A DNA stretch of 64,000 nucleotides from NCBI GenBank assembly GCA_964636325.1, contig CAZWRV010000003.1:1824-65823 (forward strand), read 5' to 3'. Both the position numbers and the translations under genes were made by a program. Under the pieces are notes generated by a model that worked only from the letters and a program-made list of their open reading frames with translations, was not told the origin of the DNA and made no database searches. How positions within the stretch are numbered: the first letter of the stretch is position 1; every line of letters starts with the position of its first letter. Below, one piece after another: positions 15,269-52,957 of this stretch. The DNA comes from an uncultured Victivallaceae bacterium. Lineage in GTDB: Bacteria > Verrucomicrobiota > Lentisphaeria > Victivallales > GWF2-50-93.

Positions 15269-15277
15269 GGCTTGCCC

Positions 15278-23340: not shown

Positions 23341-23393
23341 AGTCCTATCCTAAAGCCTTTCAGACTTGGACGAATACACCGCGGTAATTAAAT

Positions 23394-24743
23394 TCATCTA
23401 TCTCCAATTTCATCCTGGGGAATTAAATTTTTCAGGATTTCGCGGGACTCCCTGTCTCCTGCCGTCGCCGCCTTTGCGAGCCATGCGGCCCCGGCCTTGG
23501 CATCCTTCGGCGTCCCCTCCCCTTTCAGATACGCCAGCGCAAGCCTCCTCTGCGCCTTCGGATCCCCGCCCTCGGCGGCCCGCTTGAACCAGTAGAACGC
23601 CGCCTTGGGATCCTTCGCCACGCCCCTGCCGTCCGAATAGCAGCTCCCTATGTTGAACTGCGCGTGCAGGTTCCCCCTTCTGGCGGCGTCGAGAAAATAG
23701 ATCGCGGCCTTCCTGTCGTCCGCATCCTGCCCGATCCCCTCGGCCGCCATGAAACCGAGGTTGAACAGCGCATAATGGTTGCCCTTTTCGGCGGCCTTCT
23801 CAAAGCACTGCCGCGCGCGGCGGATGTCAGTCTCGACCATCTTGCCTTCCATGTAGATTTCGCCGAGCTTCACAAGGGCCATGCAGTTGCCCGCCTCGGC
23901 CGCCTTTGCATATAGCCCGCATATCCTGGCCGGATCGCGCTCCAGCCCGCCGATCCCGTTCTCATGGCAGAACGCGAGTTTGGCAAATGCCTCGCCGAAA
24001 TCCTGCTCGGCCGCCCTTTCCAGCCAGAAGACCATCTTCTTCTCGTCCTTCTGGCATAGCTTCCCGGAATAGTAGAAGTCTGCGAGCATGCACATTCCGC
24101 CCGGATCCCCTGCCTCGGCGGATCTGCCGAGCAGTTCGAAGGCCCTCCCCATATCCACAGCAAGCCCCCCCTCGCCTTCCATATATGCCTCGGCAAGCTT
24201 TAGATAGGCGGGTGGGAACCCCTCGTCCGCAAGTTCCTTCAGCATCTCCACCGCGCGGACGGGATCTCTGTTTACTAAGACGATCTCCTCACCCTCCGGA
24301 GAGTCCGCCGCGGCAAGTCCGTTCCGGAAGGTCAGCGCCACATTGTATTTCGCCTGTGGGACTCCGGCCTTGCCGGCGAGATCATACCACTTGAACGCCT
24401 CAAGCCTGTCCTCCTTCACGCCAAGCCCCTTGTCGAAGCAGACCCCAAGGTTGAACTGCGCCTCCGGCAGCCTCTGAAGGGCGGCCTTCCTGAACCAGAA
24501 CGCCGCAAGCGAATAGTCCTTCTTCCTGCCCTCGGAGCCGTAGAAATATATGTTGCCGAGCCTGAACTGCGCCCTCGCGTCGCCCGCCCTCGCCTCCTGC
24601 TCGATCCTTCCGAACGAATCCGCCGCGGCGGCGTCTTTGGAAGAAGATTCGTCCCCGCCGGCAACTACGCTGGGCGCGGCGAGCAGCATGCCATAAATGG
24701 CGATGCTGCCCAAGATCCACATCAATTTGCGACTGACAGGCAT
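23394..24743 (-). CDS. Secreted Sel1-type (TPR-like) repeat protein
   Basis: It has a signal peptide and about 10 repeats of the Sel1 pattern, for example AQFRLGNIYFYGSEGRKKDYSLAAFWFRKAA and AQFNLGVCFDKGLGVKEDRLEAFKWYDLAG. Confidence 0.85.
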   Translation of the reverse strand: MPVSRKLMWILGSIAIYGMLLAAPSVVAGGDESSSKDAAAADSFGRIEQEARAGDARAQFRLGNIYFYGSEGRKKDYSLAAFWFRKAALQRLPEAQFNLGVCFDKGLGVKEDRLEAFKWYDLAGKAGVPQAKYNVALTFRNGLAAADSPEGEEIVLVNRDPVRAVEMLKELADEGFPPAYLKLAEAYMEGEGGLAVDMGRAFELLGRSAEAGDPGGMCMLADFYYSGKLCQKDEKKMVFWLERAAEQDFGEAFAKLAFCHENGIGGLERDPARICGLYAKAAEAGNCMALVKLGEIYMEGKMVETDIRRARQCFEKAAEKGNHYALFNLGFMAAEGIGQDADDRKAAIYFLDAARRGNLHAQFNIGSCYSDGRGVAKDPKAAFYWFKRAAEGGDPKAQRRLALAYLKGEGTPKDAKAGAAWLAKAATAGDRESREILKNLIPQDEIGDR

Positions 24744-41651: not shown

Positions 41652-44240
41652 CTACTGCCGGAAGGGCGGAAGCCCTCTGATTTCGCGCGCCCTGTATGGC
41701 GAACCGTCCGGCTGCACAAGGCGGACGGTGGTGAAAATCAGGAGGTTACGCTTGGCAAGATCTTCAACCTTGGACTGGAACAGTCTTCCTACGACTGGAA
41801 TTGATCCGAGGCCGGGGATTCTGTCGTCGATATAGCCGCTGGTATCCCTGGTAACTCCGCCCATGACGACCGTCTCTCCATCGTATATCTGCATCTGCGT
41901 GGTTATTGTCCTTGCCTCGATGATCGGCATCCGCAAGGTATTCGTGTAGAAGTTGCCGTTGGCGGCAGGAACCTGATAGCTGTAGTCGATCCATCCGATG
42001 AACGCCTGAAGGACGGGGGTCATGTCAAGGGCTATCGTGTATCTGTCCGCGTCCACCTGCGGAGTCACGGTCAGCCTAACGCCCAGCTCGGTAGGGGATC
42101 CGAACTGCGGTACGGAAGGCGTAAATATATCCCCCCATCCTGCCGCCCCGCCTCCGCCGCCGCCCGCAGGGATATAGTTCGCGTCGCTCCAGCTCTCAGG
42201 CAGATACACCTCCGTTATCATCCTTATGGTCGCCTCCTCTCCGTTCTGCGTCGTTATCCTGGGTGTGGAAAGGATATCTGTGGATTCGGAGGTGTTCAAT
42301 GCGTGGACGAGGGCCTGATATGTGACGCCGTCGCTGGAATGCTTAGTCACATTGAAAATCACATCCCTGTTGTTTGTCCATATCGGCGAAACATCGTCCG
42401 AGAAACGCAGAAGCGGATCGTTCTGGTTGAAGGTCATGCTCTTGTCCGACAGAGGCGGATGCGACAGGGAGGACGGCCTGCTGACAAGCCATTCAAATCC
42501 CAAGGAATTCATGTCCTGCTGGGCGATTTCAACGAATTTCGCCTCAATAAGAACCTGGGGATCGGTGATATTCATCTCCTTCAAGACCTTTTCAATCTTC
42601 TCGAGGTTGTCCGGAGTGTTTGTGGCGATGAGACGGCTGATGGCGGAATCATAGACCACTTTCGCCCCCTCGGGGAATGTGACGCCGCGCTGGACGAAGA
42701 ACTGCTGTATTGCGGCGCTCTGCCCGGTAGCCGCAGCGCCGCCCTCCTCCCCGCCTCCTCCACCGCCTCCGAATTCCGAGAATGTCTCCTGTTCGACGGG
42801 ATATATGCGTGTTTCGAGCTCGTCCAGGGCGACGTCGGGGGAGGCTATGACTACGGCATACTTCTCAACGCGCCACTTCAAGTTCACGCCTCTGCAGACA
42901 TATTTTATCGCCTCGATGAGGGGGATGTCTTCTACAAGGATGGTTACTGTCATGTCACTGCCCGGAGCCGCAAGCGCGCCATCCGTAAGGTTGCCGGCCT
43001 CTTCTTCGGCGTTGGCGCCCTCTGCCGCAGGGGCGGCTCCGCCCTCCGCCCCTTCGGCCGGAGCCGGTGCGGCGGCTCCGCCTTCGCCGCCGGCGGCCGG
43101 CGCCGGTGCGGCACCGCCTCCGCTCAGCCTGAGGAAGATATTGACGCCTTCGCCTTCCTTGTCAAGCTCCTTGCTCTTCATCTTCAGATATTTGACTACT
43201 ACCGGAACTGAAACCTCCTCGAACTCCATCCTGTCGATTATTATGCTCTCCAGCTTTTTCTGTATGTCGCTTACCCCTTCTTTCTTCTCTATCGGAGCTT
43301 CTACTATCTCCTTCTCGCCGGTGAACGTCCTAGGCAGGAGGGGGGTCACATACTTCCATTCGGACTCAGTGAGCCTTTCCTTGAGCGTGAGCTTCAAGCG
43401 GTCGCTGCCTGACTGGAAAAGCTTCTGGTTGACCAACTTCATAAACCTTATCGTATTGATATGATAGGGGTTTATTATCAGAATCTGCTCGAACTTGTCA
43501 CGGGCCTTGTCATACTGTCCGTCGTAATAGAAGGTTTTGCCCTGCTCGTAAAGGACTTCGAGATTATAGGTCCTCTGGTTGGCGTCCGGAAGGAGGGTGT
43601 CCTTGGAGGTTTCCTTGCGGAACTTCAATACATCCTTCATTTTTTCGTATTTTTCAATCATGGCATCCATCCTGGCGGAAGTGGAAGGGCTGATTCTCTT
43701 GGCCTCCTTGCATTTTTCGATCGCCGAATCATACTGGTTCGCGTTCGCGACCTCCTCGGCCTTCGCCGCAACGCTTTGCGCCCAGTAGTAGTAAGCGACC
43801 GACATGGCCTCGTCAACGGAGTCCAGCTTCGCCTTTATCCTGGCGGAAGGATTGGCTCCGCCCAGGCCGAGAAGCTTCTTTTTCGCCTCGAGATAGAGAT
43901 TGATCGCATTTTCATAATCGTTGTTTTGGAAGGCGATCCTGGCCTTGTTGAAAATCTCGTTGACTTTAATGTCCTCCTCGGACATTTCGATTTCAAACTT
44001 ATTGACATCGTTCTCTATTTCCATCTTTATCTCTTCCGGAGAAGGCGGAGGGAATTCCACTGCCGGCTTCTTCTTCGGGGACGGCTGGGGGGCGTCGTCG
44101 GGCAGTTCCTGCTGTCCTTGTACGGCTTCGGGATTAGCCGGATTGTCCGCAGGCGCCTCTTCCTGGGACAGGAGAGGCGTGCCCGGAGCGAACAGCAAGA
44201 TTGGAAGGACGAACAGCGAAATTATTCGCAAAAAACGCAT
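41652..44240 (-). CDS. Secretin-family outer-membrane channel protein (paralogue 2) with an N-terminal TPR-like region and an Ala/Gly/Glu-rich linker
   Basis: The C-terminal secretin signature is DDRIPGLGSIPVVGRLFQSKVEDLAKRNLLIFTTVRLV. The N0/N1-like modules include IIDRMEFEEVSVPVVVKYLK and VEDIPLIEAIKYVCRGVNLKW. It has a signal peptide MRFLRIISLFVLPILLFA. The start is set at the ATG preceded by GGAGG. Confidence 0.85.
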   Translation of the reverse strand: MRFLRIISLFVLPILLFAPGTPLLSQEEAPADNPANPEAVQGQQELPDDAPQPSPKKKPAVEFPPPSPEEIKMEIENDVNKFEIEMSEEDIKVNEIFNKARIAFQNNDYENAINLYLEAKKKLLGLGGANPSARIKAKLDSVDEAMSVAYYYWAQSVAAKAEEVANANQYDSAIEKCKEAKRISPSTSARMDAMIEKYEKMKDVLKFRKETSKDTLLPDANQRTYNLEVLYEQGKTFYYDGQYDKARDKFEQILIINPYHINTIRFMKLVNQKLFQSGSDRLKLTLKERLTESEWKYVTPLLPRTFTGEKEIVEAPIEKKEGVSDIQKKLESIIIDRMEFEEVSVPVVVKYLKMKSKELDKEGEGVNIFLRLSGGGAAPAPAAGGEGGAAAPAPAEGAEGGAAPAAEGANAEEEAGNLTDGALAAPGSDMTVTILVEDIPLIEAIKYVCRGVNLKWRVEKYAVVIASPDVALDELETRIYPVEQETFSEFGGGGGGGEEGGAAATGQSAAIQQFFVQRGVTFPEGAKVVYDSAISRLIATNTPDNLEKIEKVLKEMNITDPQVLIEAKFVEIAQQDMNSLGFEWLVSRPSSLSHPPLSDKSMTFNQNDPLLRFSDDVSPIWTNNRDVIFNVTKHSSDGVTYQALVHALNTSESTDILSTPRITTQNGEEATIRMITEVYLPESWSDANYIPAGGGGGGAAGWGDIFTPSVPQFGSPTELGVRLTVTPQVDADRYTIALDMTPVLQAFIGWIDYSYQVPAANGNFYTNTLRMPIIEARTITTQMQIYDGETVVMGGVTRDTSGYIDDRIPGLGSIPVVGRLFQSKVEDLAKRNLLIFTTVRLVQPDGSPYRAREIRGLPPFRQ

Positions 44241-44280
44241 GATGAAAACCTCCATGTATTATATATGCGATTAACTAAAA

Positions 44281-47094
44281 TCACCTTCTGAAATCCGGCA
44301 TCCCTTTGCCCTCAAGCTCTCTGACAGGCATTCCGTCAGGATTGACAAGCCTCGCAGTGACAAAGATCATAAGATTCCTTTTCTCGCTCCTGTCGTTCTT
44401 GGCGGAGAACAGCCTTCCGAGTATCGGTATGTCACCTATTCCGGCAACCCTGTCGTCGACAGCCGACAGCCTTTCAGTAAGCATTCCGCCCAGGACTATG
44501 GTCTCACCGTCATAGACCTTGACGGTGGCTGTCGCATCGCGCCTTGATATTTCGGGCATCTTCAGGTTGAACTGGGCGCCGGAGCCCGCTATTCCAATGA
44601 TAAGAGTGTAGAAGTTGTTGGTCCAGCCGGACAGATCGACCACCTGCGGGTTGAGCTGCAAAGTTATCGTGTAATGGTTGGGGCTGACCGTGGGAGTGAC
44701 AACAAGGACAATGCCGACGTCGGTGGCGGAGCCGAGGTCAGGCTTGGGAGGGGTTATCTGGAAGACACCGTTGGTGATGGCGACAGTAGGCTCAGTCCAG
44801 GAGGTCGGATAATATTCCTCCCTGACCATCCTTATCTGCGCCTCCTGCCCGCTTGTCGCAATAACCTTGGGCGCGGACAGTATCTCCGTCCTGTCGCTCC
44901 AGTCAATCGCATGCAGCATCATCTGAAGGTGCATCTGGCCCCTGCCTGGCGAACCGAACGCCGGGAACACGAGGTTGTTGATCAGCCTGTCGTTGACTAC
45001 GGGGTCGACTGGGCTGAGCACGCCGCTCATGTTGCTTCCGAGAGGCCTGACGGTCGATGCGTTGGGCGCAATCTGCCACCACGAGTCGGAGTCCGTGGGA
45101 TTCTGTACGCTGGGATCCTTGCTGAAAATCCATTCAAAGCTCAGGTCTTCAAGATCGGTCTGGACCATTTCAATGAATTTAGACTCAATAAGGACTAGGG
45201 GGCTTTCAACGTCAAGTTCCCTCAGGATATATTCAAGGCGCCTGAGGTTTTCCGGGGTGTTCGTGCAGGAAAGCCGGCTGGATTGCCGGTTATAGGCGAT
45301 TCCGGCTCCTTCAGGGAAGGGAATGCCTCTCTCGGCAAAATACGCCATGAGAGCCTCGGCCGTAAGTGACTTCTTCGCGGTCTTATCGTCATCTTTAGAC
45401 AGGATATCCTCCTCAAAAAGTCCCGTACCAGCTTTCTGGGAAGCGATGCTTTCCTCCTTCTCGCCCTGCTCCTGTGGCACTATACGCGTGATCAGCGCCG
45501 CCCTGACCCTGAAATACCTTGTCTCCATGACATCGGGAATTTCATCGCCGATCATTACCGCGTGCTCCTCCACCCTGTATTTCAGCCCGCAGTTCAAGCA
45601 GATATACCTTATAAGTTCGCCGATCGGGATATTGTCGAAGTTCATCGTCACCCTGGGAATTGACGCAAGCCTTTCGGGCTTGATTGTGAGCTGTATGGCG
45701 ATTCCCTCCTTCTGCGTGTCGACCTCCCTGCTCTTCTGCAGGAGCCAAGTTACGACAGACGAAATAGGGGCGTCCTCGAAGTCCATGTGGTCGATCACTA
45801 TCTTCGCAAGCTTCTCATACATTTCCGAGTTCGACGATCTTGAGACATTATCCTCTTCGGGCGGCTTCACGGCCGGAGCGGGCAGGACAGGTTCGTTCCA
45901 TTTCCATCTGACTTCGGTGAGCCTTTCAAGCGTGTCGTTGTATTTCCTTATCTTTGCGAAATAATAAAGCTTCTGGTAAATGTTGGAAAGCAGGTTGGTC
46001 GCCTTCAAATTATATGGATCTCTGGCGAGGATTTTCTCGAGGGCGTTCCTGGCGAGGATGAATTCGTCGTTGTCCAGCAGGACTTCAGCCTGCTTCAAGG
46101 AGACTTCCATCTCATATAGCCTTAAGGGCCTCTCCGGATCCATGTTGAACTTGGGGTTCTCCTGGTCGCTGTGCTCTATGTCGCTGAGCTTGAGCGCTTC
46201 CGCAGTCCGTATTCTCGCGTCGCAATGGTCAATTGCCTTCTGTATGCCTGGTGTGAGCGAATTGTCGGCCTGGACAGCCTTGCGAAGTATTTCCTTCGTC
46301 CTATCATACCTCCCCTTGAGCTCCTCATAATAGACGTCCGCCGACTTCTTCTCCAGCTCATCCGGCTTTTCACATGCGGAGTATGCCTCGAATCCAATGT
46401 CCTTTATATACTGGCCGAGTCTGCTTTTCAGGGATGCAACACCGTCTTCCACCTTCCCCTTCAAGATATCGACCGCCGGGCCCGTAAGCCCTTTCACCGA
46501 CTTGTCGAAGTCGGCCTTCGCGTTGTCAATCAGCTTGATCGCATCGTCGAACTTCTGTTTGTCCGCGAGCGCCTTAGCTTCCTCGAAGAGCTTGCCGCTA
46601 ATGATCGGGTCGGCGATCTCCTTGTTCTTCTTGAGGTTTTCCTCCCTCTGCATATCTTCGGCTGAAACCACGGTCGAGACGTCCGACGAGCCGATCTTCT
46701 TATTTGACTCGCTGATGATCAGCTTAAGAGGCTCCCGCAACGAAGGATCCAGCTCCACGGCGACGTTTGCGGCAACCAAGGCTTGGTCGAACTTCCCTTC
46801 CTTGAAGGCGGATTCGGCCTTGGCCCTGTAATCGGCCGCCTTTTGCAGCTTTCCGGCATCGGCGGCCTTGGCGGCTTTTTGTACAGGCTTTCCGGCTGGC
46901 TCTCCGGCATCTGGCTGTTCATTCTTTTCCGCGTCGGCATTTCTCTCGTCGGGCTTGCCGGCCTTGCCGCCGTCCTGTTTAAGGGAGAGATTGTCGAGAT
47001 CGTCTTCCTGCGCCCCGGCATTGACCGCGCCCACAAATGTGAAGACAGCAACTGCCAGGAACAAAAGCAGATTTGGCTTATTTATCATGAGCAT
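44281..47094 (-). CDS. Secretin-family outer-membrane channel protein (paralogue 1) with an N-terminal TPR-like region
   Basis: The C-terminal secretin signature is DDRVAGIGDIPILGRLFSAKNDRSEKRNLMIFVTARLV. The N-domain modules include VIDHMDFEDAPISSVVTWLL and FDNIPIGELIRYICLNCGLKY. It has a signal peptide. Confidence 0.85.
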   Translation of the reverse strand: MLMINKPNLLLFLAVAVFTFVGAVNAGAQEDDLDNLSLKQDGGKAGKPDERNADAEKNEQPDAGEPAGKPVQKAAKAADAGKLQKAADYRAKAESAFKEGKFDQALVAANVAVELDPSLREPLKLIISESNKKIGSSDVSTVVSAEDMQREENLKKNKEIADPIISGKLFEEAKALADKQKFDDAIKLIDNAKADFDKSVKGLTGPAVDILKGKVEDGVASLKSRLGQYIKDIGFEAYSACEKPDELEKKSADVYYEELKGRYDRTKEILRKAVQADNSLTPGIQKAIDHCDARIRTAEALKLSDIEHSDQENPKFNMDPERPLRLYEMEVSLKQAEVLLDNDEFILARNALEKILARDPYNLKATNLLSNIYQKLYYFAKIRKYNDTLERLTEVRWKWNEPVLPAPAVKPPEEDNVSRSSNSEMYEKLAKIVIDHMDFEDAPISSVVTWLLQKSREVDTQKEGIAIQLTIKPERLASIPRVTMNFDNIPIGELIRYICLNCGLKYRVEEHAVMIGDEIPDVMETRYFRVRAALITRIVPQEQGEKEESIASQKAGTGLFEEDILSKDDDKTAKKSLTAEALMAYFAERGIPFPEGAGIAYNRQSSRLSCTNTPENLRRLEYILRELDVESPLVLIESKFIEMVQTDLEDLSFEWIFSKDPSVQNPTDSDSWWQIAPNASTVRPLGSNMSGVLSPVDPVVNDRLINNLVFPAFGSPGRGQMHLQMMLHAIDWSDRTEILSAPKVIATSGQEAQIRMVREEYYPTSWTEPTVAITNGVFQITPPKPDLGSATDVGIVLVVTPTVSPNHYTITLQLNPQVVDLSGWTNNFYTLIIGIAGSGAQFNLKMPEISRRDATATVKVYDGETIVLGGMLTERLSAVDDRVAGIGDIPILGRLFSAKNDRSEKRNLMIFVTARLVNPDGMPVRELEGKGMPDFRR

Positions 47095-47134
47095 ATTTCC
47101 CTTAATTGTTCATTATGTTAAATATTTTCAGATA

Positions 47135-48463
47135 TCATTTCCTGTCGCGAGGAGGCTGGGGCATCTGCCCAGGGAACACTCCTGGAGGGGCAGGAGGCAT
47201 CGGCATGCCTGCCGGGCCTGGAACAGGCGTCGTCTTGGAAGGCGTCTTCGGCTGTTTCGGAGGCTGCGGGCCGGGAGTGAATCCCGGAGGGAGAGGCATC
47301 CCCTCCGGGTGCATCATGTTCTCCGGATTCTCCTCGGGCGGCGGTATCTCCTTCTTGTCCCATTCCTGCTGTGCGATAAATGTCTTATCCCCGAGATTGA
47401 ATGGCATGCCCTCCTTATTCTTCAACTTCACCTTCTTGTTCTTGGCGTCCGCCGCTCCGTCGACCACATATGTCTCTGGCTGGATGTTCTTGCCGGTAAC
47501 GGTGAATTCGCCGCTGCTGTTGGGCGTGTATTCCTTGCCTGTCGCGGAATCGATGATGAAAATCTTCTCCTTGTTTTCAAAGACCTTCTTTTCGGGTTGT
47601 ATCTCTATTGGAGGATCGTCCTCCCTTTGTATAATGATGCCAGTCATGTCCTTGGAAACCAAGGTCTTGAGCTTTTTATCCTCTACCTCGACGGTTTTCG
47701 GGACAATGTCGACGATGTTGAACTTGTCATTCGGGCCGTAATCTATGACGTTTCCAATCTTGTAGAACTTCAACTTCCCCTTGACATACATCTGGATTTC
47801 CCACTTGCTCTTGTCGTCGCCGCTCTTCACGACCTTCTGAAGCTTCAAGTTCAGCTCCCGGCGCTCTATCTTGCTGACGTAAAGCCTCAATGCGGCCGGG
47901 GGGTGCGACTTCGCGTCGTTCATCTTCGTCTTGAGCTTGTATTCTGTAAGATTGTTGAAGCCATCCTCGTCGAGGTCGGTGAAGGCATCGGTCGGGTTGT
48001 TGGGATCCAAGTTGAATTCCTTCTCGACCTTGTCTGGAATCCCGTCCTTGTCGGTGTCGAAAGTGACGCCGTCCTCATCCGGCCCTTTTTTGATTTTAGG
48101 CGGCTGCAGCTTGGCGCCGCAGTTGGGACATTTCTCTTTTTCCCAGGACTGGTATGGGATAATCTTCGAACAGACCCCGCATGGTGCCGCCGGATACGGG
48201 AGCACCAGATCCGCCGAAAGCTTGTCCTCGGAGTCGGCATTCTGCCTTGCCCAGTCGTGTTCGGAGTAGAATATGTTTGCTATCTCATAATCGGCGAGCT
48301 TCAGCGGGTTGTAGTTCGCCCTTATGTAAGGGAGCTTCAAATCCTCGGGCTTTATGTTAAGTGACACGCTCAGGACCGCGATCAGCCAGATCAGCGAGAA
48401 TATGAACACCAGCAGTGAAATGGCCAGTATTATCTTTTCGTAATGTTTCTTCAGGAAGTTCAT
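47135..48463 (-). CDS. Bitopic pilus-like-system protein: TM anchor, CxxC..CxxC zinc ribbon, TSP3-like Asp-rich repeats, Pro-rich tail
   Basis: The TM is IILAISLLVFIFSLIWLIAVL and the zinc ribbon is CGVCSKIIPYQSWEKEKCPNCG. The Asp-rich repeats are DEDGVTFDTDKDGIPD..DPNNPTD..DLDEDGFNNLTEY. The C-terminal tail is PPGFTPGPQPPKQPK..PPAPPGVFPGQMPQPP. It overlaps the upstream gene by 4 nt. Confidence 0.75.
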   Translation of the reverse strand: MNFLKKHYEKIILAISLLVFIFSLIWLIAVLSVSLNIKPEDLKLPYIRANYNPLKLADYEIANIFYSEHDWARQNADSEDKLSADLVLPYPAAPCGVCSKIIPYQSWEKEKCPNCGAKLQPPKIKKGPDEDGVTFDTDKDGIPDKVEKEFNLDPNNPTDAFTDLDEDGFNNLTEYKLKTKMNDAKSHPPAALRLYVSKIERRELNLKLQKVVKSGDDKSKWEIQMYVKGKLKFYKIGNVIDYGPNDKFNIVDIVPKTVEVEDKKLKTLVSKDMTGIIIQREDDPPIEIQPEKKVFENKEKIFIIDSATGKEYTPNSSGEFTVTGKNIQPETYVVDGAADAKNKKVKLKNKEGMPFNLGDKTFIAQQEWDKKEIPPPEENPENMMHPEGMPLPPGFTPGPQPPKQPKTPSKTTPVPGPAGMPMPPAPPGVFPGQMPQPPRDRK

Positions 48464-49671
48464 TTCGCCTTCTGCACCATGTCGTTTTCGATGAACGTCA
48501 CATACTCGAAAGTTATCTCGGATGTCACTTCGCTTTCGGCGGGATCCCCGAGGATCAGCTTTGCCGGAGCCGCAGTCGAACCTGAGGATTCGGCGTCATC
48601 CTTGGCGGGCTTGAAGACGTTTTCGTCCTCAACGACTTCCTGCTTCTTCTCTGCCGCGGCGGCGGCGATGGGCGCGGCTTCGTCCTTAACCTTCTCTATG
48701 GAGACATATTTGATTTTGTAGACTCTGTTTTCCTTGTAAGCGTTCTTCATGCTGTTGACGAGGTCGCGCAGCGAACCGAGCGGGCAGCTCACGGTCATCT
48801 TATATGGCAGATAATGGTATCCTCTTTCGGTATATCCTTCGATGGTGCCCGTCTTCGCCAGGGACTTGAGGTTCGTGACTCCGGCCCCCTTCATCCTGTA
48901 GACCAGATCCTCCACCATCTTGTAGTTCCTGATTATATAAGGTATATGGTCGGGAACCGGCAGCTTGTTTTCGTAGACGGTGAAGATGTTCCTGTCGGGT
49001 ACGGTTATCGATATTCCTTTCCCGACGTTGGCGGACAGGAGCTTCATCAGGTTGCTGCTCATGCGCAGCATGTAGGCCTTGCATACCTCGGGGGAAATCC
49101 TCCTCTGCAGCCCCATCGCCTCTAAGAGTATGTCGTTGGAATTGACATTGTAGGGCTCGACCGATATCTTCTGATCCTCCTCGACGGTCAAAGTCTCCTT
49201 GTCCATCACCTTCCAGAAGGCCTCCTTTGCCGCGTTCAACGTCTCCGGTTCATACTTCTTGACGAAGCTGGCGAATATCTGCTCCGGCTGGCTGCCCATC
49301 TTGGACTCCTTCAGGAAGAGCTCCCTCCATCTCTTATACATCGCGAACTCGTTCTCCCCCAGCACTTCGCAGAAGGCCTGGAATGCAGCCCTGTACGGCT
49401 TCCCGAAGAGGTAATGGATCTCGTCGGCCTTCTTCTGGACGACAAGCGTGTCCTTCTTGATGTTGTCGAGGTTCTCCTGGACCGGGCCTGGAGGCGGCAT
49501 TTTCGCGGCCTCGTCAATCTTGGCCCTGTTCTCCTGGAGGATGCGCTGATACTCCTTGATCTTCTGATACTTCTGGAGCACCAGGAACAGGAGTGCGACG
49601 GAGGCCGCCAGCGAGACCGCCAGCGTTATGAACAGGAGCATGTTCTTCTTCAATATTGCAATGAAAAGCAT
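48460..49671 (-). CDS. Bitopic PilO-like / Amuc_1100-like pilus-system protein
   Basis: It has an N-terminal TM LFITLAVSLAASVALLFLVL, a coiled-coil region, and a C-terminal alpha/beta domain interrupted by an Ala-rich linker (..YKIKYVSIEKVKDEAAPIAAAAAEKK.. then ..SEITFEYVTFIE). As far as I recall, this architecture resembles Akkermansia Amuc_1100. Confidence 0.65.
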   Translation of the reverse strand: MLFIAILKKNMLLFITLAVSLAASVALLFLVLQKYQKIKEYQRILQENRAKIDEAAKMPPPGPVQENLDNIKKDTLVVQKKADEIHYLFGKPYRAAFQAFCEVLGENEFAMYKRWRELFLKESKMGSQPEQIFASFVKKYEPETLNAAKEAFWKVMDKETLTVEEDQKISVEPYNVNSNDILLEAMGLQRRISPEVCKAYMLRMSSNLMKLLSANVGKGISITVPDRNIFTVYENKLPVPDHIPYIIRNYKMVEDLVYRMKGAGVTNLKSLAKTGTIEGYTERGYHYLPYKMTVSCPLGSLRDLVNSMKNAYKENRVYKIKYVSIEKVKDEAAPIAAAAAEKKQEVVEDENVFKPAKDDAESSGSTAAPAKLILGDPAESEVTSEITFEYVTFIENDMVQKAK

Positions 49672-49672
49672 G

Positions 49673-51451
49673 TTACTTCATCACCGGTTCTTTGAGTTTT
49701 ATGCCCATTGTGAAGCTTGTTATGTTGTTTTCGACGCCCGGATTGAATTGGATCATCCTGATCTCGCTGATGTTGCTGCTGAAGAGCGGCGACTTCACAA
49801 GGTTGTCCTTGAAAGTAGCCTCGAGCGGTGTGCTCTCCTGGAAGTAGAGGAAGTAGCCCTTCACCTCGAGCCATTCGCACTTCGATGTCTCGGTAGGGCC
49901 TCTGGCCACGCCTCCTCCCTTTTTCCTGAATATCGGGATCATCATGGGGCCGCCAGGCCCCTCCCCGCCGCCTTCGGCCACGGCAGCCGCGGCGACTTCG
50001 CCGCCTTCCACGGTAGGCTTGGGAACCACGCTTGTGAGCCACATGTTTTCCGGCAGAAGCCTCTGTATCTCCTCGAAGATGCCTATGACCTTGCAGCGCT
50101 CCTGGAGTATCTTCGCCGCGAAATTGTAGTCGGCCTTGGCGGTCTCAAGCTTGCCATATGCGATCTTGACCTCGTTCTTCATGTTGTCGGTCTTTGCCAC
50201 CTCCTTGGTGGAGAGCTCCGACTTCATCTTGTCTATCTTCTCCTGGTTGATGAGGGCCGCGAACGTCAGGGCGAGGCACAGCACCAGCGAGGCGGCGCTC
50301 ATGAGGAAATACGGGGCCTTGTGCCTTATCTCCTGCAGCTTGCGCAGCTTCTGAGGGACGAGCGAGATCTCTATCGGGCAGACGGTCGCGTGCCTTAGCC
50401 CCAGGCCTATGACCTCCGAGAACATGTGCGCCACCTCGGCAAGCTCCTCCCTGTTTATATTGGGGGACAGGGAGACGACCTGGAAGGGGTTGAAGAAGTC
50501 GGAAGGTATCTTGAGCTTCTCCGTGAAGAATCTCGGCGTGAACGCCATCACGGAGCTTCCGCCTGCAAGATAGAGCTTGTTCGGCTTGTTGCCTTTCTGC
50601 TGGGAGCGGTAGACGTTGATAGACCTGTTGATTTCCCCGTGGAGCCTTGTCATGACGTTTCGGACAATCTTTGAAATCGTGGCGGCCACCTCCGAATCAG
50701 GCTCCTCGTATGCGCCGCCCAAGGCCACGAAACCGTGCTTCCGCTTGAGCTCCTCGGCATCCTTGAACGGAATGCCGAACTCCTTGCTGATCTGCTGGGT
50801 TATGGCATGGCCGGCGACCGCGATCGGCCTCACGAAGAACCTTCCGCTGTCGACGAAGACCAGGCTCGCGCAGCGCGAGCCGATGTTGAGGAGCATCACG
50901 CACTCTTCGCCTCCGATCTCGTTCGCCCTGGCAGCGTTGTAGCAGGCCGCCGGCGCGACGTCCACGAGCATGATCTCCTTGCCGAGCTCCTCGATCACGT
51001 TCGTGATTTCCTCTATCACGGAATCCTTTATCACGACGAACATCACGTTGATCTCGGTGTCGCCCTCGGCGCTTCCGATAAGCTGGTAGTCCCAGACGAC
51101 CTGCTCGATAGGGAAAGGCACGTTCTGCTTGGCCTCGTATTCGACGACCTGGCGAACCCTGTCCTCCTTGTCCCCTATAGGCGGCAGGCTGACGAAGCGG
51201 ATGAACGCGGACTGGCCGGAAATGGAAAGATAGACCTTCTCGGAATTGAACCCCTTTTCCTTGATGGTCGTAATGATGGCAGCCTTCAGCGCCCCGGCCA
51301 GCTCCTCCTCCTTGAGGTCTCCGCCATATTCCGTGAAGGCGAACTTCTCGAGTATCATACCTCCGGCCGGAGGGTAGCTGAACTCGGCGACCTTGAGGCT
51401 GTCGGCACCTATGTCTATCGCCAGAATTTTTTCCTGCTTAGCCATTGTCAC
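49673..51451 (-). CDS. PilM-like actin-fold ATPase fused to a TM/PilN-like and C-terminal periplasmic domain
   Basis: The N-terminus ILAIDIGADSLKVAEF..., ..MLVDVAPAACYNAARAN.. and LYLAGGSSVMAFTPRFF are PilM/FtsA-type. It is followed by the TM FLMSAASLVLCLALTFAALI, a coiled coil, and a ~170-aa periplasmic domain. Confidence 0.8.
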   Translation of the reverse strand: MTMAKQEKILAIDIGADSLKVAEFSYPPAGGMILEKFAFTEYGGDLKEEELAGALKAAIITTIKEKGFNSEKVYLSISGQSAFIRFVSLPPIGDKEDRVRQVVEYEAKQNVPFPIEQVVWDYQLIGSAEGDTEINVMFVVIKDSVIEEITNVIEELGKEIMLVDVAPAACYNAARANEIGGEECVMLLNIGSRCASLVFVDSGRFFVRPIAVAGHAITQQISKEFGIPFKDAEELKRKHGFVALGGAYEEPDSEVAATISKIVRNVMTRLHGEINRSINVYRSQQKGNKPNKLYLAGGSSVMAFTPRFFTEKLKIPSDFFNPFQVVSLSPNINREELAEVAHMFSEVIGLGLRHATVCPIEISLVPQKLRKLQEIRHKAPYFLMSAASLVLCLALTFAALINQEKIDKMKSELSTKEVAKTDNMKNEVKIAYGKLETAKADYNFAAKILQERCKVIGIFEEIQRLLPENMWLTSVVPKPTVEGGEVAAAAVAEGGGEGPGGPMMIPIFRKKGGGVARGPTETSKCEWLEVKGYFLYFQESTPLEATFKDNLVKSPLFSSNISEIRMIQFNPGVENNITSFTMGIKLKEPVMK

Positions 51452-52116
51452 TTCCTCTGACCCATCTTTAACAGCTCGTAGTAGTCGTTGTTCAGATTCC
51501 GCCAGGGGGTTTCCTCTATGCAGTAGATGCTGTCGTTCACCCTTGTTATGGCGGGATCCCTCGCGGCGGCCTTGAACATGTTTGCGACCTCCGCGGCCTT
51601 CCTTTCCGGATTTACAGCGCCGCCGATTATGGCCTGGTTCATCGTGACCTTCAGTCTTATATACATGTCCTTGGCGACCGAAGGTGTGATCTTGAGGTCG
51701 GGTGCGAACCTCTGGAGGAACCTCGGATGGACGAAGGCCACCGCATGGTGATCCTTTCCGTCAAGGGGGATGGACCAGTATGTCGTCGATCCGGAGAGGT
51801 ATATGGCCCTGTTGCCCTCCCCGCGCATGAGCACCTCATATTCGAAGGAGACGTCGTCCAGCCATTCCGTCTGCCTGTTCTTGTCCGTCTTGGACACGGT
51901 CGTGAAGGTCACGTTGATCACAAGCCACATCTCTATCTCTTTTACGATTCCGGCGACATTCTGGACATTTATCTGAGGCGTCTGCTGGAACTGGCAGTCG
52001 AACTTGAAGTTCTTGAAATATTCCTCCTGGGCGCTGAGGGACAGGCAGGCGGAAAACGCCGCTGCCAGGAGAATCCCGAATGCGGCCTTAGCGAATTTGG
52101 CATCCGTATACGGCAT
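51448..52116 (-). CDS. Small exported protein, paralogue B (possible lipoprotein), first-gene pair of the pilus-like operon
   Basis: The signal peptide has AAFSAC, a lipobox-like sequence. It aligns along its whole length with the gene at 52123-52773, for example DKNRQTEWLDDVSFEYEVL, TMNQAIIGGAVNPERKA and YYELLK. Confidence 0.7.
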   Translation of the reverse strand: MPYTDAKFAKAAFGILLAAAFSACLSLSAQEEYFKNFKFDCQFQQTPQINVQNVAGIVKEIEMWLVINVTFTTVSKTDKNRQTEWLDDVSFEYEVLMRGEGNRAIYLSGSTTYWSIPLDGKDHHAVAFVHPRFLQRFAPDLKITPSVAKDMYIRLKVTMNQAIIGGAVNPERKAAEVANMFKAAARDPAITRVNDSIYCIEETPWRNLNNDYYELLKMGQRK

Positions 52117-52122
52117 CCCTAT

Positions 52123-52773
52123 CTATCTCCGTACTGGCTTGATAAGCTCGTAATAGTCGTAGTTCAGGTCGCGCCAAGGCGTCTTGTCGATGCCGTAGAC
52201 GCTGTCGTTCACCCTCAATATGTTCGGATCTGTGGCGGCCTTCTTGAACGCATTGGCGACTTCCATAGCCTTGCGCTCAGGATTTACCGCCCCTCCGATG
52301 ATGGCCTGGTTCATGGTGACCTTTATCCTTATGTAGGTGTCCTTGGCAGCGGAGGGGGACGTGGACTTCAGTTCCGGAGCATAACGCTGCAGGAACCTGG
52401 GGTGTATGAAACCCACGGAATGATGCTCCTTCCCGTCGAGGGGGATGGCCCAGTAGGTGGTGGTTCCGGAAAGATAGACGGGCCCCTTGAAGCCCGGAAC
52501 CAGCACCTCGTATTCGAAGGAGACGTCGTCGAGCCACTCGGGCTGCCTGTTCTTGTCAGTCTTGCTGACGGTCGTGCATGTCACATTGATCACAAGCCAC
52601 ATGTCGAGCTTCGCGACCGGAAGGCCGGCCACGTTGGGGGCGTTTATCTGAGGGGTCTGCTGGAAGCTGCAGTCAATCTTGAAGTTCTTGAAGAAGTCCT
52701 GCTGCTGCGGGAATACGGAGAGGCAACAGGACAAGGACAGCACAACAAGCAGGAGCTTGAGGACAAGCTTCAT
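52123..52773 (-). CDS. Small exported protein, paralogue A, first gene of the pilus-like operon
   Basis: The signal peptide is MKLVLKLLLVVLSLSCC. It shares blocks with paralogue B: FFKNFK.DC.FQQTPQIN, MWLVINVT.TTVSKTDKNRQ.EWLDDVSFEYEVL and VTMNQAIIGGAVNPERKA.EVAN.FK.AA.DP. Confidence 0.7.
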   Translation of the reverse strand: MKLVLKLLLVVLSLSCCLSVFPQQQDFFKNFKIDCSFQQTPQINAPNVAGLPVAKLDMWLVINVTCTTVSKTDKNRQPEWLDDVSFEYEVLVPGFKGPVYLSGTTTYWAIPLDGKEHHSVGFIHPRFLQRYAPELKSTSPSAAKDTYIRIKVTMNQAIIGGAVNPERKAMEVANAFKKAATDPNILRVNDSVYGIDKTPWRDLNYDYYELIKPVRR

Positions 52774-52957
52774 ATCGCACCTCGGAATTCGGACAAGATT
52801 TTATGTGAATTTATAAATCTATATAAATGAATTGCAAAATAAACCTGAAAAGTCCATTCTGCAAGCTCATTTCGAACAATTATTTTATTTTATTTAGCAG
52901 TTTCAATTTGACGGCCTAGATTCATATGCCGCCATAACACGACGCCTCTGGAAACGC

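What the first reader, a model, noticed from the sequence alone, without database searches (positions are those of the whole stretch)
41652..52773. Seven-gene, 11-kb secretin / PilM-like trans-envelope system without pilin, ATPase or platform genes
This is a tight minus-strand operon with junctions from -4 to +40 nt. It starts with two paralogous exported ~220-aa proteins and a 592-aa PilM-actin-fold protein fused to TM, coiled-coil and periplasmic domains. A 403-aa bitopic PilO-like protein and a 442-aa bitopic zinc-ribbon/TSP3/Pro-rich protein follow. It ends with two large secretins that have TPR-like N-termini. The order mimics pilMNOPQ but every component is divergent, fused or duplicated. 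No PilB/PilT ATPase, PilC platform, prepilin peptidase or pilin is present. From memory it resembles the Akkermansia muciniphila Amuc_1098-Amuc_1102 neighbourhood, which contains the immunomodulatory outer-membrane protein Amuc_1100. The function and assembly of that system remain uncharacterised. This version, with doubled secretin and doubled first gene, is a good candidate for an undescribed PVC envelope machine for surface display, secretion or uptake.
Basis: partly seen in the sequence, partly recalled or inferred. Interest (0 to 1): 0.78.

Follow-up and report, generated by a model that had tools for sequence, protein, structure and literature searches.

The report
Lentisphaerota Amuc_1100-type pilus-like secretin operon
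This seven-gene operon is a Lentisphaerota version of the known Akkermansia Amuc_1098-1102 (MUL2) pilus-like envelope system, notable mainly for two conserved secretin genes where Akkermansia has one.

Summary
All seven products are homologues, in the same order, of the Akkermansia muciniphila Amuc_1102, 1101, 1100, 1099 and 1098 proteins. The evidence is NCBIfam hits, profile and fold matches to PDB 7DSZ and 6KNY/6LAD, and hhalign probabilities of 99-100%. All NCBIfam scores fall below the equivalog cut-offs, so these are divergent relatives.

The organism is a Lentisphaerota (Victivallales-like) bacterium. That system is no longer uncharacterised. In Akkermansia it is called MUL2 and is required for mucin uptake and competitive gut colonisation. 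Two of its proteins have crystal structures.

The cassette occurs in at least 575 species genomes of Lentisphaerota, Kiritimatiellota and Verrucomicrobiota. The two secretins come from one old duplication that is kept in every complete locus of a Victivallales-like clade. The doubled first gene is confined to this lineage.

The operon itself carries no motor or pilin gene. In related genomes, however, pilB-pilT-pilC operons or prepilin gene clusters sit directly next to the cassette. I read it as the envelope-spanning module of a retractile type IV pilus-like machine whose motor and pilins are encoded elsewhere. It is a new variant of a known kind, of moderate interest.

The parts
52798..52906 (-). 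Promoter-like sites in the 184-nt divergent intergenic region upstream of g1
   Evidence: Two sigma-70-like matches on the minus strand: TTGAAA-16-AATAAT (10/12) at 52906-52879 and a 9/12 match at 52827-52798. These are consensus matches only.
52123..52773 (-). g1: exported Amuc_1102-family (Mul2A-like) beta-sandwich protein, copy 1, 216 aa
   Evidence: It is 70% identical to g2. Precomputed Pfam PF28178 Amuc_1102 matches it on an identical contig. It is a member of family alignment A2, which matches PDB 7DSZ at E 1.9e-15. The N-terminus looks like a Sec-type signal peptide.
51448..52116 (-). g2: exported Amuc_1102-family (Mul2A-like) beta-sandwich protein, copy 2, 222 aa
   Evidence: NCBIfam Amuc_1102_rel E 3e-7, 30 bits against a cut-off of 55. 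The AF2 model has pLDDT 92.8. Its best PDB fold match is 7DSZ Amuc_1102: E 6.8e-10, probability 1.0, TM 0.64/0.73.
49673..51451 (-). g3: PilM-PilN fusion (Amuc_1101/Mul2B family), 590-592 aa. Cytoplasmic actin-like PilM domain, INLLP-like motif CPIEISLVP, TM helix, coiled coil, periplasmic alpha-beta-beta x2 domain.
   Evidence: PilM_2 1e-34. Amuc_1101_fam 1e-136, 457 bits against a cut-off of 650. The AF2 model (pLDDT 81) has the PilM fold at 1-353, a helix at 365-463 and a beta-beta-alpha-beta-beta domain at 468-589. Foldseek top hits are PilM of P. aeruginosa, T. thermophilus and M. xanthus, E 6e-26 to 3e-23. C356, E359, L362 and P364 are invariant in 65 homologues.
48460..49671 (-). g4: bitopic Amuc_1100-family protein (PilO/GspM position), 403 aa, with an insertion of about 100 aa relative to Amuc_1100
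   Evidence: NCBIfam Amuc_1100_fam 1.5e-7, 31 bits against a cut-off of 180. A profile built only from Lentisphaerota sequences has Amuc_1100 (6LAD/6KNY) as its best PDB hit, E 0.005. hhalign against the Verrucomicrobiota/Kiritimatiellota Amuc_1100 family gives probability 99.3%, E 8.6e-21, with an unaligned block at about residues 93-190.
47135..48463 (-). g5: bitopic Amuc_1099-family protein (PilP/GspC position), 442 aa. TM helix, CxxC...CxxC, TSP3-like Ca-binding repeats, beta-rich domain, Pro-rich tail.
   Evidence: NCBIfam Amuc_1099_fam 1.5e-12, 47.8 bits against a cut-off of 50. hhalign against the Verrucomicrobiota/Kiritimatiellota Amuc_1099 family gives probability 100%, E 6e-45 over residues 5-357. 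No solved relative was found by sequence, so the PilP-like role is inferred from position only.
44281..47094 (-). g6: TPR-secretin, paralogue A (Amuc_1098 family), 937 aa
   Evidence: Secretin 1.4e-32 plus TPR hits. Amuc_1098_fam 2e-83, 281 bits against a cut-off of 750. GspD, PilQ and MshL models all score far below their cut-offs. It is orthologous to the first secretin of other Victivallales-like loci.
41652..44255 (-). g7: TPR-secretin, paralogue B (Amuc_1098 family), 862-867 aa, with Gly/Ala/Pro/Glu-rich linkers
   Evidence: Secretin 4.2e-29 plus TPR_2 1e-10. Amuc_1098_fam 1e-99, 335 bits against a cut-off of 750. It is 31-36% identical to g6. It is orthologous to the second secretin of other loci.

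Best explanation
The operon is the Lentisphaerota (Victivallales-like) version of a cassette found across the PVC phyla. In Akkermansia muciniphila that cassette is Amuc_1102-1101-1100-1099-1098, also called MUL2.

It encodes the envelope-spanning, non-motor half of a type IV pilus-like (type IV filament) machine:
- g3 is a PilM-PilN fusion. It forms the cytoplasmic ring and an inner-membrane stalk.
- g4 is the Amuc_1100 homologue and takes the PilO/GspM-like partner role.
- g5 is the Amuc_1099 homologue. It is a bitopic periplasmic connector in the PilP/GspC position.
- g6 and g7 are two paralogous outer-membrane secretins with fused TPR (pilotin-like) N-termini.
- g1 and g2 are exported Amuc_1102-type beta-sandwich accessory proteins. 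They carry Sec-type signal peptides and are not canonical pilins.

The motor (PilB, PilT, PilC), the prepilin peptidase and the prepilin-type subunits are encoded elsewhere in the genome.

Shown here: homology of every gene, the domain architecture, co-conservation, the history of the secretin duplication, and physical linkage to pilBTC or prepilin genes in relatives.

Inferred: that a retractile fibre passes through the secretin(s), and that, as in Akkermansia, the system serves attachment to and import of large glycans or glycoproteins in this sulfatase- and glycosidase-rich organism.
For: 1. Homology of every gene to the Akkermansia proteins:
- NCBIfam Amuc_1098-1102 hits for g2-g7.
- Pfam PF28178 on both g1 and g2.
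- The family profile hits 7DSZ at E 1.9e-15.
- The g2 model's best fold match is 7DSZ.
- g4 family against the Amuc_1100 family: hhalign 99.3%.
- g5 family against the Amuc_1099 family: hhalign 100%.
- g3 is 32-33% and g6/g7 are 24-27% identical to the Akkermansia and Rubritalea orthologues.

2. The gene order is the same in Akkermansia and Rubritalea and in nearly all of 80 PVC loci. Flanking genes differ from locus to locus.

3. g3 has a PilM fold, a PilN-like motif, a TM helix, a coiled coil and an alpha-beta-beta x2 domain.

4. Linkage to pilus motor and subunit genes:
- A convergent pilB-pilT-pilC operon lies directly downstream of the secretin in 8 of 34 loci that have at least 3 kb of downstream sequence. 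One of these is a Lentisphaeria locus (L031), six are Verrucomicrobiota loci, and one contig is labelled Acidobacteriota.
- The PilT genes checked (L031 and L061) pass the TIGR01420 cut-off, 456 and 462 bits against 319.
- In the Kiritimatiellota loci L068 and L069, five or six prepilin genes and a large unknown protein lie on the same strand just upstream of the cassette.

5. Prepilin-type HX9DG genes are frequent in Lentisphaerota flanks, and one lies in this window.

6. From the literature:
- MUL genes for pili are needed for mucin transport and competitive colonisation (PMC12928651, PMC12418764, bioRxiv 10.1101/2024.03.27.586211).
- Amuc_1098 is an outer-membrane secretin (PMC4960237).
- MUL2 is conserved in aquatic Akkermansiaceae that live on particles (PMC13174399).

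7. The window is rich in sulfatase, GH2, GH39-like and GH42-like genes.
Against: - No motor, peptidase or pilin gene lies in the operon or in the annotated flanks (about 18 kb downstream, about 11 kb upstream).
- The rest of this genome could not be examined, so the presence of pilB, pilT, pilC and pilD in this organism is assumed, not shown.
- All pilBTC adjacencies are in single-secretin lineages. For the double-secretin loci fetched by PilM match, less than 3 kb downstream of the second secretin was held.
- The adjacency cases probably represent only two or three independent events, because seven fall in or near one Verrucomicrobiota clade.
- Every NCBIfam score is below the equivalog cut-off, so functional equivalence with the Akkermansia proteins is not guaranteed.
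- The PilO-like role of g4 rests on a weak PilO match (E 0.17). The PilP-like role of g5 rests on position only.
- The primary MUL2 paper (Davey 2023) could not be read. Its results are cited second-hand.
[quoted passage not shown] That abundance is unusual for a pilus secretin and hints at a more porin-like use.
Confidence: 0.6

Rival explanations
1. It is a type II secretion-like exporter. g3 acts as a GspL analogue, g4 as GspM, g5 as GspC and g6/g7 as GspD-type secretins. A short pseudopilus built from the abundant HX9DG/DUF1559 prepilin-type proteins pushes folded glycoside hydrolases and sulfatases out of the periplasm.
For: - The fused architecture of g3 (cytoplasmic actin-like domain, TM helix, periplasmic ferredoxin-like domain) is that of GspL.
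- For both secretins the GspD model scores slightly above the PilQ model, 110 against 105 bits and 133 against 124 bits.
- The secretins lack the AMIN domains typical of PilQ.
- Prepilin-type HX9DG genes sit in glycan-utilisation operons, including one in this window.
- The extension ATPase next to the cassette in L061 scores just above the GspE cut-off, 636.6 against 630.25 bits. Its PilB score, 631.2 bits, falls below the PilB cut-off of 675.65.
Against: - By sequence and fold the cytoplasmic domain is PilM, not GspL: PilM_2 at 1e-34 and top fold hits all PilM.
- A PilT-family retraction ATPase, which type II systems lack, is part of the adjacent motor operon in L031 and L061.
- Akkermansia MUL mutants are described as defective in mucin import, not enzyme export (PMC12928651, bioRxiv 10.1101/2024.03.27.586211).
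- GspD scores are about a third of the family cut-off.
Confidence: 0.17
2. It is an autonomous, motor-independent trans-envelope channel, which is the reader's 'undescribed PVC machine'. The PilM-PilN/Amuc_1100/Amuc_1099 scaffold gates very abundant secretin pores. These pores let large glycans or glycoproteins diffuse or be handed into the periplasm, with Amuc_1102-type proteins acting as periplasmic or surface receptors. No pilin or PilB/PilT is involved.
For: - The cassette is self-contained. No ATPase or pilin gene was found between its genes in any of about 85 loci, and its flanks are unrelated from locus to locus.
- Amuc_1102-type proteins carry Sec-type signal peptides and have only about 33 residues before the first beta-strand, too few for a pilin alpha-1 helix.
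Against: - The PilM domain and the PilN-like motif are conserved. In known systems they exist to couple to PilB, PilC and PilT (established knowledge of T4aP machines, e.g. PDB 3JC8 and 5EOU).
- pilBTC or prepilin clusters recur next to the cassette in three phyla.
- No secretin is known to work without a piston or filament.
Confidence: 0.13
3. It is a DNA-uptake (competence) or generic adhesion/twitching pilus module with no special link to glycan use.
For: The C-terminal parts of g6 and g7 hit the HofQ 'DNA uptake porin' models at 7e-17 and 2e-22. PilT-containing motor operons lie next to the cassette in relatives. Adhesion to particles is the role proposed for aquatic Akkermansiaceae (PMC13174399).
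Against: - The HofQ hits cover only the last 70 residues or so, the generic secretin C-terminus, and score 50-80 bits against cut-offs of 554-598.
- No comEA, comEC or dprA gene was seen among the annotated ORFs of the window.
- The only genetic phenotype reported for the family concerns mucin use (literature as above).
Confidence: 0.1

Closest known systems
Akkermansia muciniphila Amuc_1098-Amuc_1102 cluster (MUL2: Mul2A = Amuc_1102, Mul2B = Amuc_1101; 'PilQ' = Amuc_1098; Amuc_1100 = the TLR2-active 'pili-like' protein)
   Same: It has the same five protein families in the same order. It has the same PilM-PilN fusion and a secretin with a TPR N-terminus. The Amuc_1102 fold is the same. The cassette is self-contained, with no ATPase or pilin gene.
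   Different: - The host phylum is Lentisphaerota.
- All scores are below the NCBIfam equivalog cut-offs. Identities run from 14% (g2 against 7DSZ) to 33% (g3), and g4 has no BLASTP match at all.
- There are two paralogous secretins instead of one.
- There are two Amuc_1102-type genes instead of one.
- g4 has an insertion of about 100 aa.
- g5 has a CxxC...CxxC element and a Pro-rich tail.
- The CoaE-Rho genes that follow the secretin in Verrucomicrobiota are absent here.
Type IVa pilus alignment subcomplex and secretin, PilMNOPQ (P. aeruginosa, M. xanthus, T. thermophilus)
   Same: The PilM fold and sequence family match. A PilN-like motif, TM helix, coiled coil and alpha-beta-beta x2 domain are present. 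The gene order M-N-O-P-Q is mirrored. An outer-membrane secretin is present. A PilB-PilT-PilC motor lies next to the cassette in some relatives.
   Different: PilM and PilN are fused. The proteins in the PilO and PilP positions belong to other sequence families, with no PF04350 or PF04351 hit. The secretins have TPR N-termini instead of AMIN domains and score 105-124 bits against the PilQ cut-off of 284. An extra exported beta-sandwich gene leads the operon. The secretin is duplicated.
Type II secretion system GspC/GspL/GspM/GspD
   Same: g3 has a GspL-like one-polypeptide architecture. Bitopic partners are present. The secretin C-terminal part aligns with GspD.
   Different: The cytoplasmic domain is PilM, not GspL. 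GspD scores are 110-133 bits against a cut-off of 351. The linked motor operons include PilT. No gspE, gspF or pseudopilin genes lie in the operon.

Membership tests
PVC Amuc_1098-1102 / MUL2 cassette | An Amuc_1102-family (PF28178, NF042424) exported beta-sandwich protein encoded first in the operon | tested here: met
   PF28178 matches both g1 and g2. Family profile A2 hits 7DSZ at E 1.9e-15 over its full length. The g2 AF2 model's best PDB match is 7DSZ, E 6.8e-10, TM 0.64/0.73. The NCBIfam equivalog cut-off is not reached: g2 scores 30 against 55, and g1 has no hit. This is family membership, not equivalog status.
PVC Amuc_1098-1102 / MUL2 cassette | An Amuc_1101-family PilM-like protein fused to a TM helix and a periplasmic domain (NF045709) | tested here: met
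   E 1.2e-136, 457 bits, below the equivalog cut-off of 650. It is 32-33% identical to the Akkermansia and Rubritalea orthologues. The architecture is confirmed by the model.
PVC Amuc_1098-1102 / MUL2 cassette | An Amuc_1100-family bitopic protein (NF038287, PF28028) | tested here: met
   hhalign of the Lentisphaerota family against the Verrucomicrobiota/Kiritimatiellota family gives probability 99.3%, E 8.6e-21. The best PDB hit of the Lentisphaerota-only profile is Amuc_1100, E 0.005. NCBIfam gives 31 bits against a cut-off of 180. This is remote homology, with an insertion of about 100 aa.
PVC Amuc_1098-1102 / MUL2 cassette | An Amuc_1099-family bitopic protein with TSP3-like repeats (NF042425) | tested here: met
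   hhalign probability 100%, E 6e-45. NCBIfam gives 47.8 bits against a cut-off of 50.
PVC Amuc_1098-1102 / MUL2 cassette | One Amuc_1098-family TPR-secretin closing the operon (NF042912) | tested here: not met
   Both g6 and g7 belong to the family (2e-83 and 1e-99, but 281 and 335 bits against a cut-off of 750). There are two paralogous genes rather than one. Akkermansia, Rubritalea and all Verrucomicrobiota and Kiritimatiellota loci examined have one. This is the feature that makes the locus a variant.
PVC Amuc_1098-1102 / MUL2 cassette | Collinear gene order 1102-1101-1100-1099-1098 as a compact unit with variable flanks | tested here: met
PVC Amuc_1098-1102 / MUL2 cassette | Required for uptake of mucin or glycan and for competitive colonisation | not testable with these tools
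   This is known only for A. muciniphila and was read second-hand (PMC12928651, PMC13174399). The primary paper is not held.
Canonical type IVa pilus PilMNOPQ | A PilM actin-like ATPase-fold protein | tested here: met
   PF11104 scores 120 bits against a gathering score of 27. TIGR01175 scores 132.5 against 133, just under. Foldseek top hits are PilM structures, E 6e-26.
Canonical type IVa pilus PilMNOPQ | A separate PilN whose N-terminal INLLP peptide binds PilM | tested here: not met
   There is no separate gene. A PilN-like segment (CPIEISLVP, TM helix, coiled coil, alpha-beta-beta x2 domain) is fused to PilM.
Canonical type IVa pilus PilMNOPQ | PilO (PF04350) and the PilP lipoprotein (PF04351) | tested here: not met
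   g4 and g5 have no Pfam hit to either family. The only trace is a PilO (3JC8) match at E 0.17 with the broad g4 profile. g5 has no solved relative.
Canonical type IVa pilus PilMNOPQ | A PilQ secretin with AMIN domains that reaches the TIGR02515 cut-off | tested here: not met
   Scores are 104.9 and 123.7 bits against a cut-off of 284. The N-termini are TPR, and no AMIN domain was found.
Canonical type IVa pilus PilMNOPQ | A major pilin, PilB, PilC, PilD and PilT in the same genome | not testable with these tools
   Only 64 kb of the genome is available. None lies in the operon. One prepilin-type HX9DG gene is at 18086-18904. pilBTC lies next to the cassette in related genomes.
Type II secretion system | A GspD secretin that reaches the TIGR02517 cut-off | tested here: not met
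   Scores are 109.8 and 133.1 bits against a cut-off of 351.
Type II secretion system | GspL-family and GspM-family inner-membrane proteins | tested here: inconclusive
   The architecture of g3 resembles GspL, but its sequence and fold family is PilM. No GspL or GspM Pfam hit was found.

The most novel reading that the evidence does not exclude
The two secretin paralogues arose from a single duplication and have been kept side by side in every complete locus of a Victivallales-like clade, at equal evolutionary rates. They may assemble into one hetero-oligomeric or two-layer outer-membrane channel, or into two dedicated channels sharing one inner-membrane scaffold (for example fibre exit and polymer entry). 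A hetero-oligomeric assembly would, as far as I could find, be the first heteromeric secretin. It would also give a handle on how this pilus-like system moves large glycans inward.
Probability: 0.2. Interest if true: 0.75.

Novelty: new variant of a known kind. Interest (0 to 1): 0.45.

Why it matters
The Amuc_1100 cluster is one of the most studied loci of a next-generation probiotic, yet how the machine works is still open.

This analysis shows that the same cassette is shared by Lentisphaerota, Kiritimatiellota and Verrucomicrobiota, in at least 575 species genomes. It is sometimes physically joined to a pilB-pilT-pilC motor operon or to prepilin clusters. That gives comparative support to the idea that it is the envelope half of a retractile type IV pilus-like machine, not a stand-alone 'pili-like protein' set.

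The Victivallales-like variant, with two co-conserved secretins, is a natural experiment for asking what passes through the pore and in which direction. These bacteria are common glycan degraders in guts and sediments.

Tried and rejected
- Single-sequence searches of g2 and g4 against PDB sequences found neither Amuc_1102 nor Amuc_1100. Family profiles were needed.
- g2 gave weak hits to the MMADHC/CblD family (PDB E 3.5e-4, Pfam 0.0054). With the 138-sequence family profile the hit drops to E 0.89 while 7DSZ rises to 1.9e-15. I rejected it as chance.
- The first PDB search with the broad g4 alignment was circular, because the alignment held the Akkermansia orthologue. I repeated it with Lentisphaerota sequences only and with hhalign.
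g4 and g5 therefore have no model.
- The g5 family profile found no informative solved relative.
- My first prepilin regex required Gly or Ala at position -1 and missed the window's HX9DG protein. A looser pattern and Pfam found it.
- Davey et al. 2023 and the 2025 Annual Review article are not held, and no preprint was found.
- A literature search for heteromeric or tandem secretins found nothing relevant. That is no proof of absence.
- A lipoprotein reading of g1/g2 was rejected, because the Cys near the signal peptide is not conserved in the family.

Full report
**1. The observation**

| Gene | Coordinates | Length (aa) |
|---|---|---|
| g1 | 52123-52773 | 216 |
| g2 | 51448-52116 | 222 |
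| g3 | 49673-51451 | 592 |
| g4 | 48460-49671 | 403 |
| g5 | 47135-48463 | 442 |
| g6 | 44281-47094 | 937 |
| g7 | 41652-44255 | 867 |

The junctions are +6, -4, +1, -4, +40 and +25 nt. Gene callers on two identical metagenome contigs choose an ATG two codons into g3 (590 aa) and five codons into g7 (862 aa).

Two sigma-70-like sites lie in the 184-nt gap upstream of g1, which is divergent from a GT2 gene.

The domain content matches the description:
- PilM_2 in g3, at 1e-34.
- Complete Secretin domains plus TPR repeats in g6 and g7.
- No Pfam family for g1, g4 or g5 in the local Pfam copy.
- g1 and g2 are 70% identical.
- g6 and g7 are 31-36% identical over their C-terminal two-thirds.

**2. 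Surroundings and organism**

The annotated flanks are housekeeping or glycan-metabolism genes.
- Downstream lie FtsH, trigger factor, ClpP, ClpX, a sulfatase and a GH2.
- Upstream lie GT2, BrkB, FtsW, MurG, CobW, ZnuA and the ATP synthase gamma subunit.
- No T2SSE/PilT-type Walker motif occurs in any ORF of at least 70 aa in the window.
- A strict prepilin motif is absent from the six-frame translation.
- A looser search and Pfam found one prepilin-type protein at 18086-18904 (-). Its N-terminus reads RGRQ|[16 protein letters not shown] and it has a C-terminal H-x9-DG motif. It sits in an operon with a LacI regulator, a GH39-like protein and ABC transporter genes.

The closest homologues of g3 (57-69% identity) come from Lentisphaeria and Victivallales MAGs. 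The window therefore belongs to a Lentisphaerota bacterium.

**3. What the genes are**

NCBIfam places the products, in order, in the Amuc_1102, Amuc_1101, Amuc_1100, Amuc_1099 and Amuc_1098 families. g6 and g7 both fall in the Amuc_1098 family. Every score is below the curated equivalog cut-off.

| Gene | NCBIfam family | Score (bits) | Cut-off (bits) |
|---|---|---|---|
| g2 | Amuc_1102 | 30 | 55 |
| g3 | Amuc_1101 | 457 | 650 |
| g4 | Amuc_1100 | 31 | 180 |
| g5 | Amuc_1099 | 47.8 | 50 |
| g6 | Amuc_1098 | 281 | 750 |
| g7 | Amuc_1098 | 335 | 750 |

I tested each weak link independently.

*g1 and g2.*
- An exhaustive profile search found 294 clusters at 50% identity.
- A 138-sequence family profile matches the crystal-structure sequence of Amuc_1102 (7DSZ) over its full length, at E 1.9e-15.
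- An AF2 model of g2 (pLDDT 92.8) has 7DSZ as its only strong PDB match: E 6.8e-10, TM 0.64/0.73. The next hit is at E 6e-3.
- The model has one N-terminal helix (residues 6-24), and the beta-sandwich starts at residue 34.
- The family N-termini look like Sec signal peptides ending in ...S|Q-E.
- So these are exported beta-sandwich proteins, not canonical type IV pilins with a long alpha-1 helix.

*g4.*
- A profile built only from the double-secretin Lentisphaerota clade has Amuc_1100 (6LAD/6KNY) as its best PDB hit, E 0.005.
- hhalign against a Verrucomicrobiota/Kiritimatiellota Amuc_1100 alignment gives probability 99.3%, E 8.6e-21.
- The alignment shows an insertion of about 100 residues in g4.

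*g5.*
- hhalign against the Amuc_1099 family gives probability 100%, E 6e-45, collinear from the TM helix through the TSP3-like repeats to the beta-rich domain.
- The Pro-rich tail is additional. The CxxC...CxxC element is present in about half of the clade.
- No solved relative was found, so a PilP/GspC-like role is an inference from position.

*g3.*
- The AF2 model (pLDDT 81) shows a PilM fold at residues 1-353.
- A helix spans residues 365-463 (TM helix plus coiled coil).
- A C-terminal beta-beta-alpha-beta-beta domain follows. Together with the long helix it gives the alpha-beta-beta x2 pattern of PilN, PilO and GspL periplasmic domains.
- The best fold matches are PilM from P. aeruginosa, T. 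thermophilus and M. xanthus.
- Directly after the PilM domain the motif CPIEISLVP is nearly invariant. It resembles the INLLP peptide by which PilN binds PilM (established knowledge, PDB 2YCH and 5EOU).
- g3 is therefore a PilM-PilN fusion.

**4. Comparative genomics**

Akkermansia (L007) and Rubritalea squalenifaciens (L008) have Amuc_1102, PilM-like, Amuc_1100, Amuc_1099 and one secretin, followed by CoaE and Rho.

A scan of one genome per species found at least 575 genomes that encode a relative of g3. The best 80 are Lentisphaerota, Kiritimatiellota and Verrucomicrobiota.

With HMMs built here, the cassette in this order is present in almost every locus long enough to show it.

Two secretins occur in 19 loci, all among the closest relatives and mostly labelled Victivallales or Victivallaceae. 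Other Lentisphaeria and all Verrucomicrobiota and Kiritimatiellota loci have one secretin, and in the other Lentisphaeria it is longer.

In a neighbour-joining tree the first and second copies form two sister clades with mirrored internal branching. This indicates one duplication at the base of that clade, with no loss in any complete locus.

Both copies evolve at similar rates:

| Copy | N-terminal mean pairwise identity | C-terminal mean pairwise identity |
|---|---|---|
| A (first) | 27% | 41% |
| B (second) | 30% | 44% |

Both keep complete secretin domains, so neither is decaying.

The doubled Amuc_1102-type gene is seen only in this organism's own contigs.

**5. Link to a motor and to pilins**

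The cassette itself carries no ATPase or pilin gene in any locus examined. Even so, linkage appears in relatives.
- In 8 of 34 loci with at least 3 kb held downstream, a convergent pilB(MshEN+T2SSE)-pilT-pilC(T2SSF) operon follows the secretin. One of these is a Lentisphaeria locus (L031), six are Verrucomicrobiota loci, and one contig is labelled Acidobacteriota.
- The PilT genes of L031 and L061 pass the TIGR01420 cut-off.
- In two Kiritimatiellota loci, five or six N_methyl prepilin genes and an unknown protein of 806-1035 aa lie on the same strand just upstream of the Amuc_1102-type gene.
- Prepilin-type genes are also scattered through Lentisphaerota flanks.

These linkages, and PilT in particular, favour a retractile type IV pilus-like machine over a type II secretion system or a motor-less channel.

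The caveats are three:
- The adjacency cases probably reflect two or three independent events.
- None is in a double-secretin genome, where too little downstream sequence was held.
- The rest of this organism's genome could not be searched.

**6. What is already known**

[quoted passage not shown] - Transposon genetics (Davey et al. 2023, read only through citing papers) showed that MUL genes encoding pili and a periplasmic complex are needed for mucin transport into internal compartments and for competitive colonisation (PMC12418764, PMC12928651, bioRxiv 10.1101/2024.03.27.586211).
- A 2026 ISME J paper names Amuc_1099-1102 'MUL2'. It reports conserved synteny in Akkermansiaceae and other Verrucomicrobiales, less conservation in Chthoniobacterales and none in Methylacidiphilales. 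It proposes attachment to particles as the role (PMC13174399).
- None of the papers I could read mentions Lentisphaerota or Kiritimatiellota versions beyond a passing note that Lentisphaera araneosa has a PilQ homologue (PMC4960237). None mentions a doubled secretin.

**7. Mechanism proposed**

Shown here: a PilM-PilN fusion, an Amuc_1100-type bitopic partner, an Amuc_1099-type bitopic connector and two TPR-secretins. These are encoded as one unit and co-inherited across phyla.

Inferred:
- g3 and g4 form the inner-membrane ring that docks a PilB/PilT/PilC motor encoded elsewhere.
- g5 bridges the periplasm to the secretin N-domains.
- The TPR N-termini replace a separate pilotin.
- A fibre of prepilin-type proteins extends and retracts through the secretin or secretins.
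- The Amuc_1102-type proteins are periplasmic or surface accessories.
- The biological role is capture and import of large glycans or glycoproteins, or attachment to them.

The role is inferred from the Akkermansia phenotype and from the sulfatase- and glycosidase-rich context here.

My estimates are as follows:
- Membership in the Amuc_1098-1102 family: about 0.97.
- The reading as a pilus-type envelope module with a remote motor: about 0.6-0.65.
- The specific glycan-uptake role: about 0.4.

**8. Verdict**

The claims that the system is uncharacterised and is an undescribed machine are outdated.

What is new, as far as I could find:
- The extension of the cassette to Lentisphaerota and Kiritimatiellota.
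- The recurrent physical linkage to pilBTC or prepilin genes.
- A clade-wide, stably retained pair of secretin paralogues.

This is a new variant of a known kind, of moderate interest. The most novel reading not excluded is a heteromeric or dual secretin channel.

Noticed in passing
window 18086-18904 (-), with neighbours 9099-19914: A prepilin-type HX9DG/DUF1559 protein has Gln, not Gly, at position -1 of the cleavage motif (RGRQ|FTIIELLVV...). It lies in an apparent sugar-utilisation operon with a LacI regulator (18901-19914), a GH39-like protein (15278-18058), a 915-aa ORF fusing an SBP_bac_1 domain to an ABC permease (11088-13835) and a 656-aa ORF with both ABC-permease and GH42 matches (9099-11069).
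   Followed up: partly
L005 5665-6294, L006 3725-4411, L011 2604-3368, L016 2159-2941, L018 16216-19051, L022 3672-4292, L040 7310-7897: Prepilin-like genes in Lentisphaerota flanks almost all lack the canonical Gly at -1; they have R, H, Q, K or S before FTLIELLVV. The Kiritimatiellota loci L068 and L069 have G or A there. This suggests an unusual prepilin peptidase specificity, or uncleaved anchors, in this phylum.
   Followed up: no
L031 17371-21408 (-); L061 17170-21271 (-); also L046, L047, L054, L060, L070, L077: A convergent pilB(MshEN+T2SSE)-pilT-pilC operon lies directly downstream of the cassette's secretin in one Lentisphaeria lineage and one Verrucomicrobiota clade.
   Followed up: yes
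L068 544-8475 (+); L069 4-8090 (+): In two Kiritimatiellota genomes, five or six N_methyl prepilin genes and a large protein of 806-1035 aa with no Pfam family lie on the same strand just upstream of the Amuc_1102-type gene. The large protein could be a PilY1-like tip protein.
   Followed up: partly
L018 10001-11737 (+): A second, orphan PilM-PilN-type paralogue (578 aa, 53% identical to g3) sits without the cassette, between ppx/ppk and pfk genes, in Lentisphaerae bacterium GWF2_50_93. Locus tags with the same prefix (DET40_01595 and DET40_05900) suggest that another MAG carries both this paralogue and the cassette copy. Three HX9DG prepilin genes lie 4.5 kb downstream.
   Followed up: no
window 2001-6000: A low-GC island (0.41-0.42 against about 0.58 elsewhere) covers the 3' part of a 1333-aa ORF with InlB B-repeats (40-4041), a Lamin-tail-domain protein (4101-4940) and an IS200-like Y1 transposase (5215-5919). 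It is probably horizontally acquired.
   Followed up: no
window 51448-52116 (g2), residues 27-120: Single-sequence searches give weak similarity to the human cobalamin-trafficking protein MMADHC/CblD (PDB E 3.5e-4, Pfam E 0.0054). The similarity disappears with the family profile (E 0.89), so it is probably chance.
   Followed up: yes
window 21787-24743 (-): A Ser/Thr protein kinase (517 aa) lies next to a 449-aa protein with six Sel1 repeats. Neither is related to the finding.
   Followed up: no
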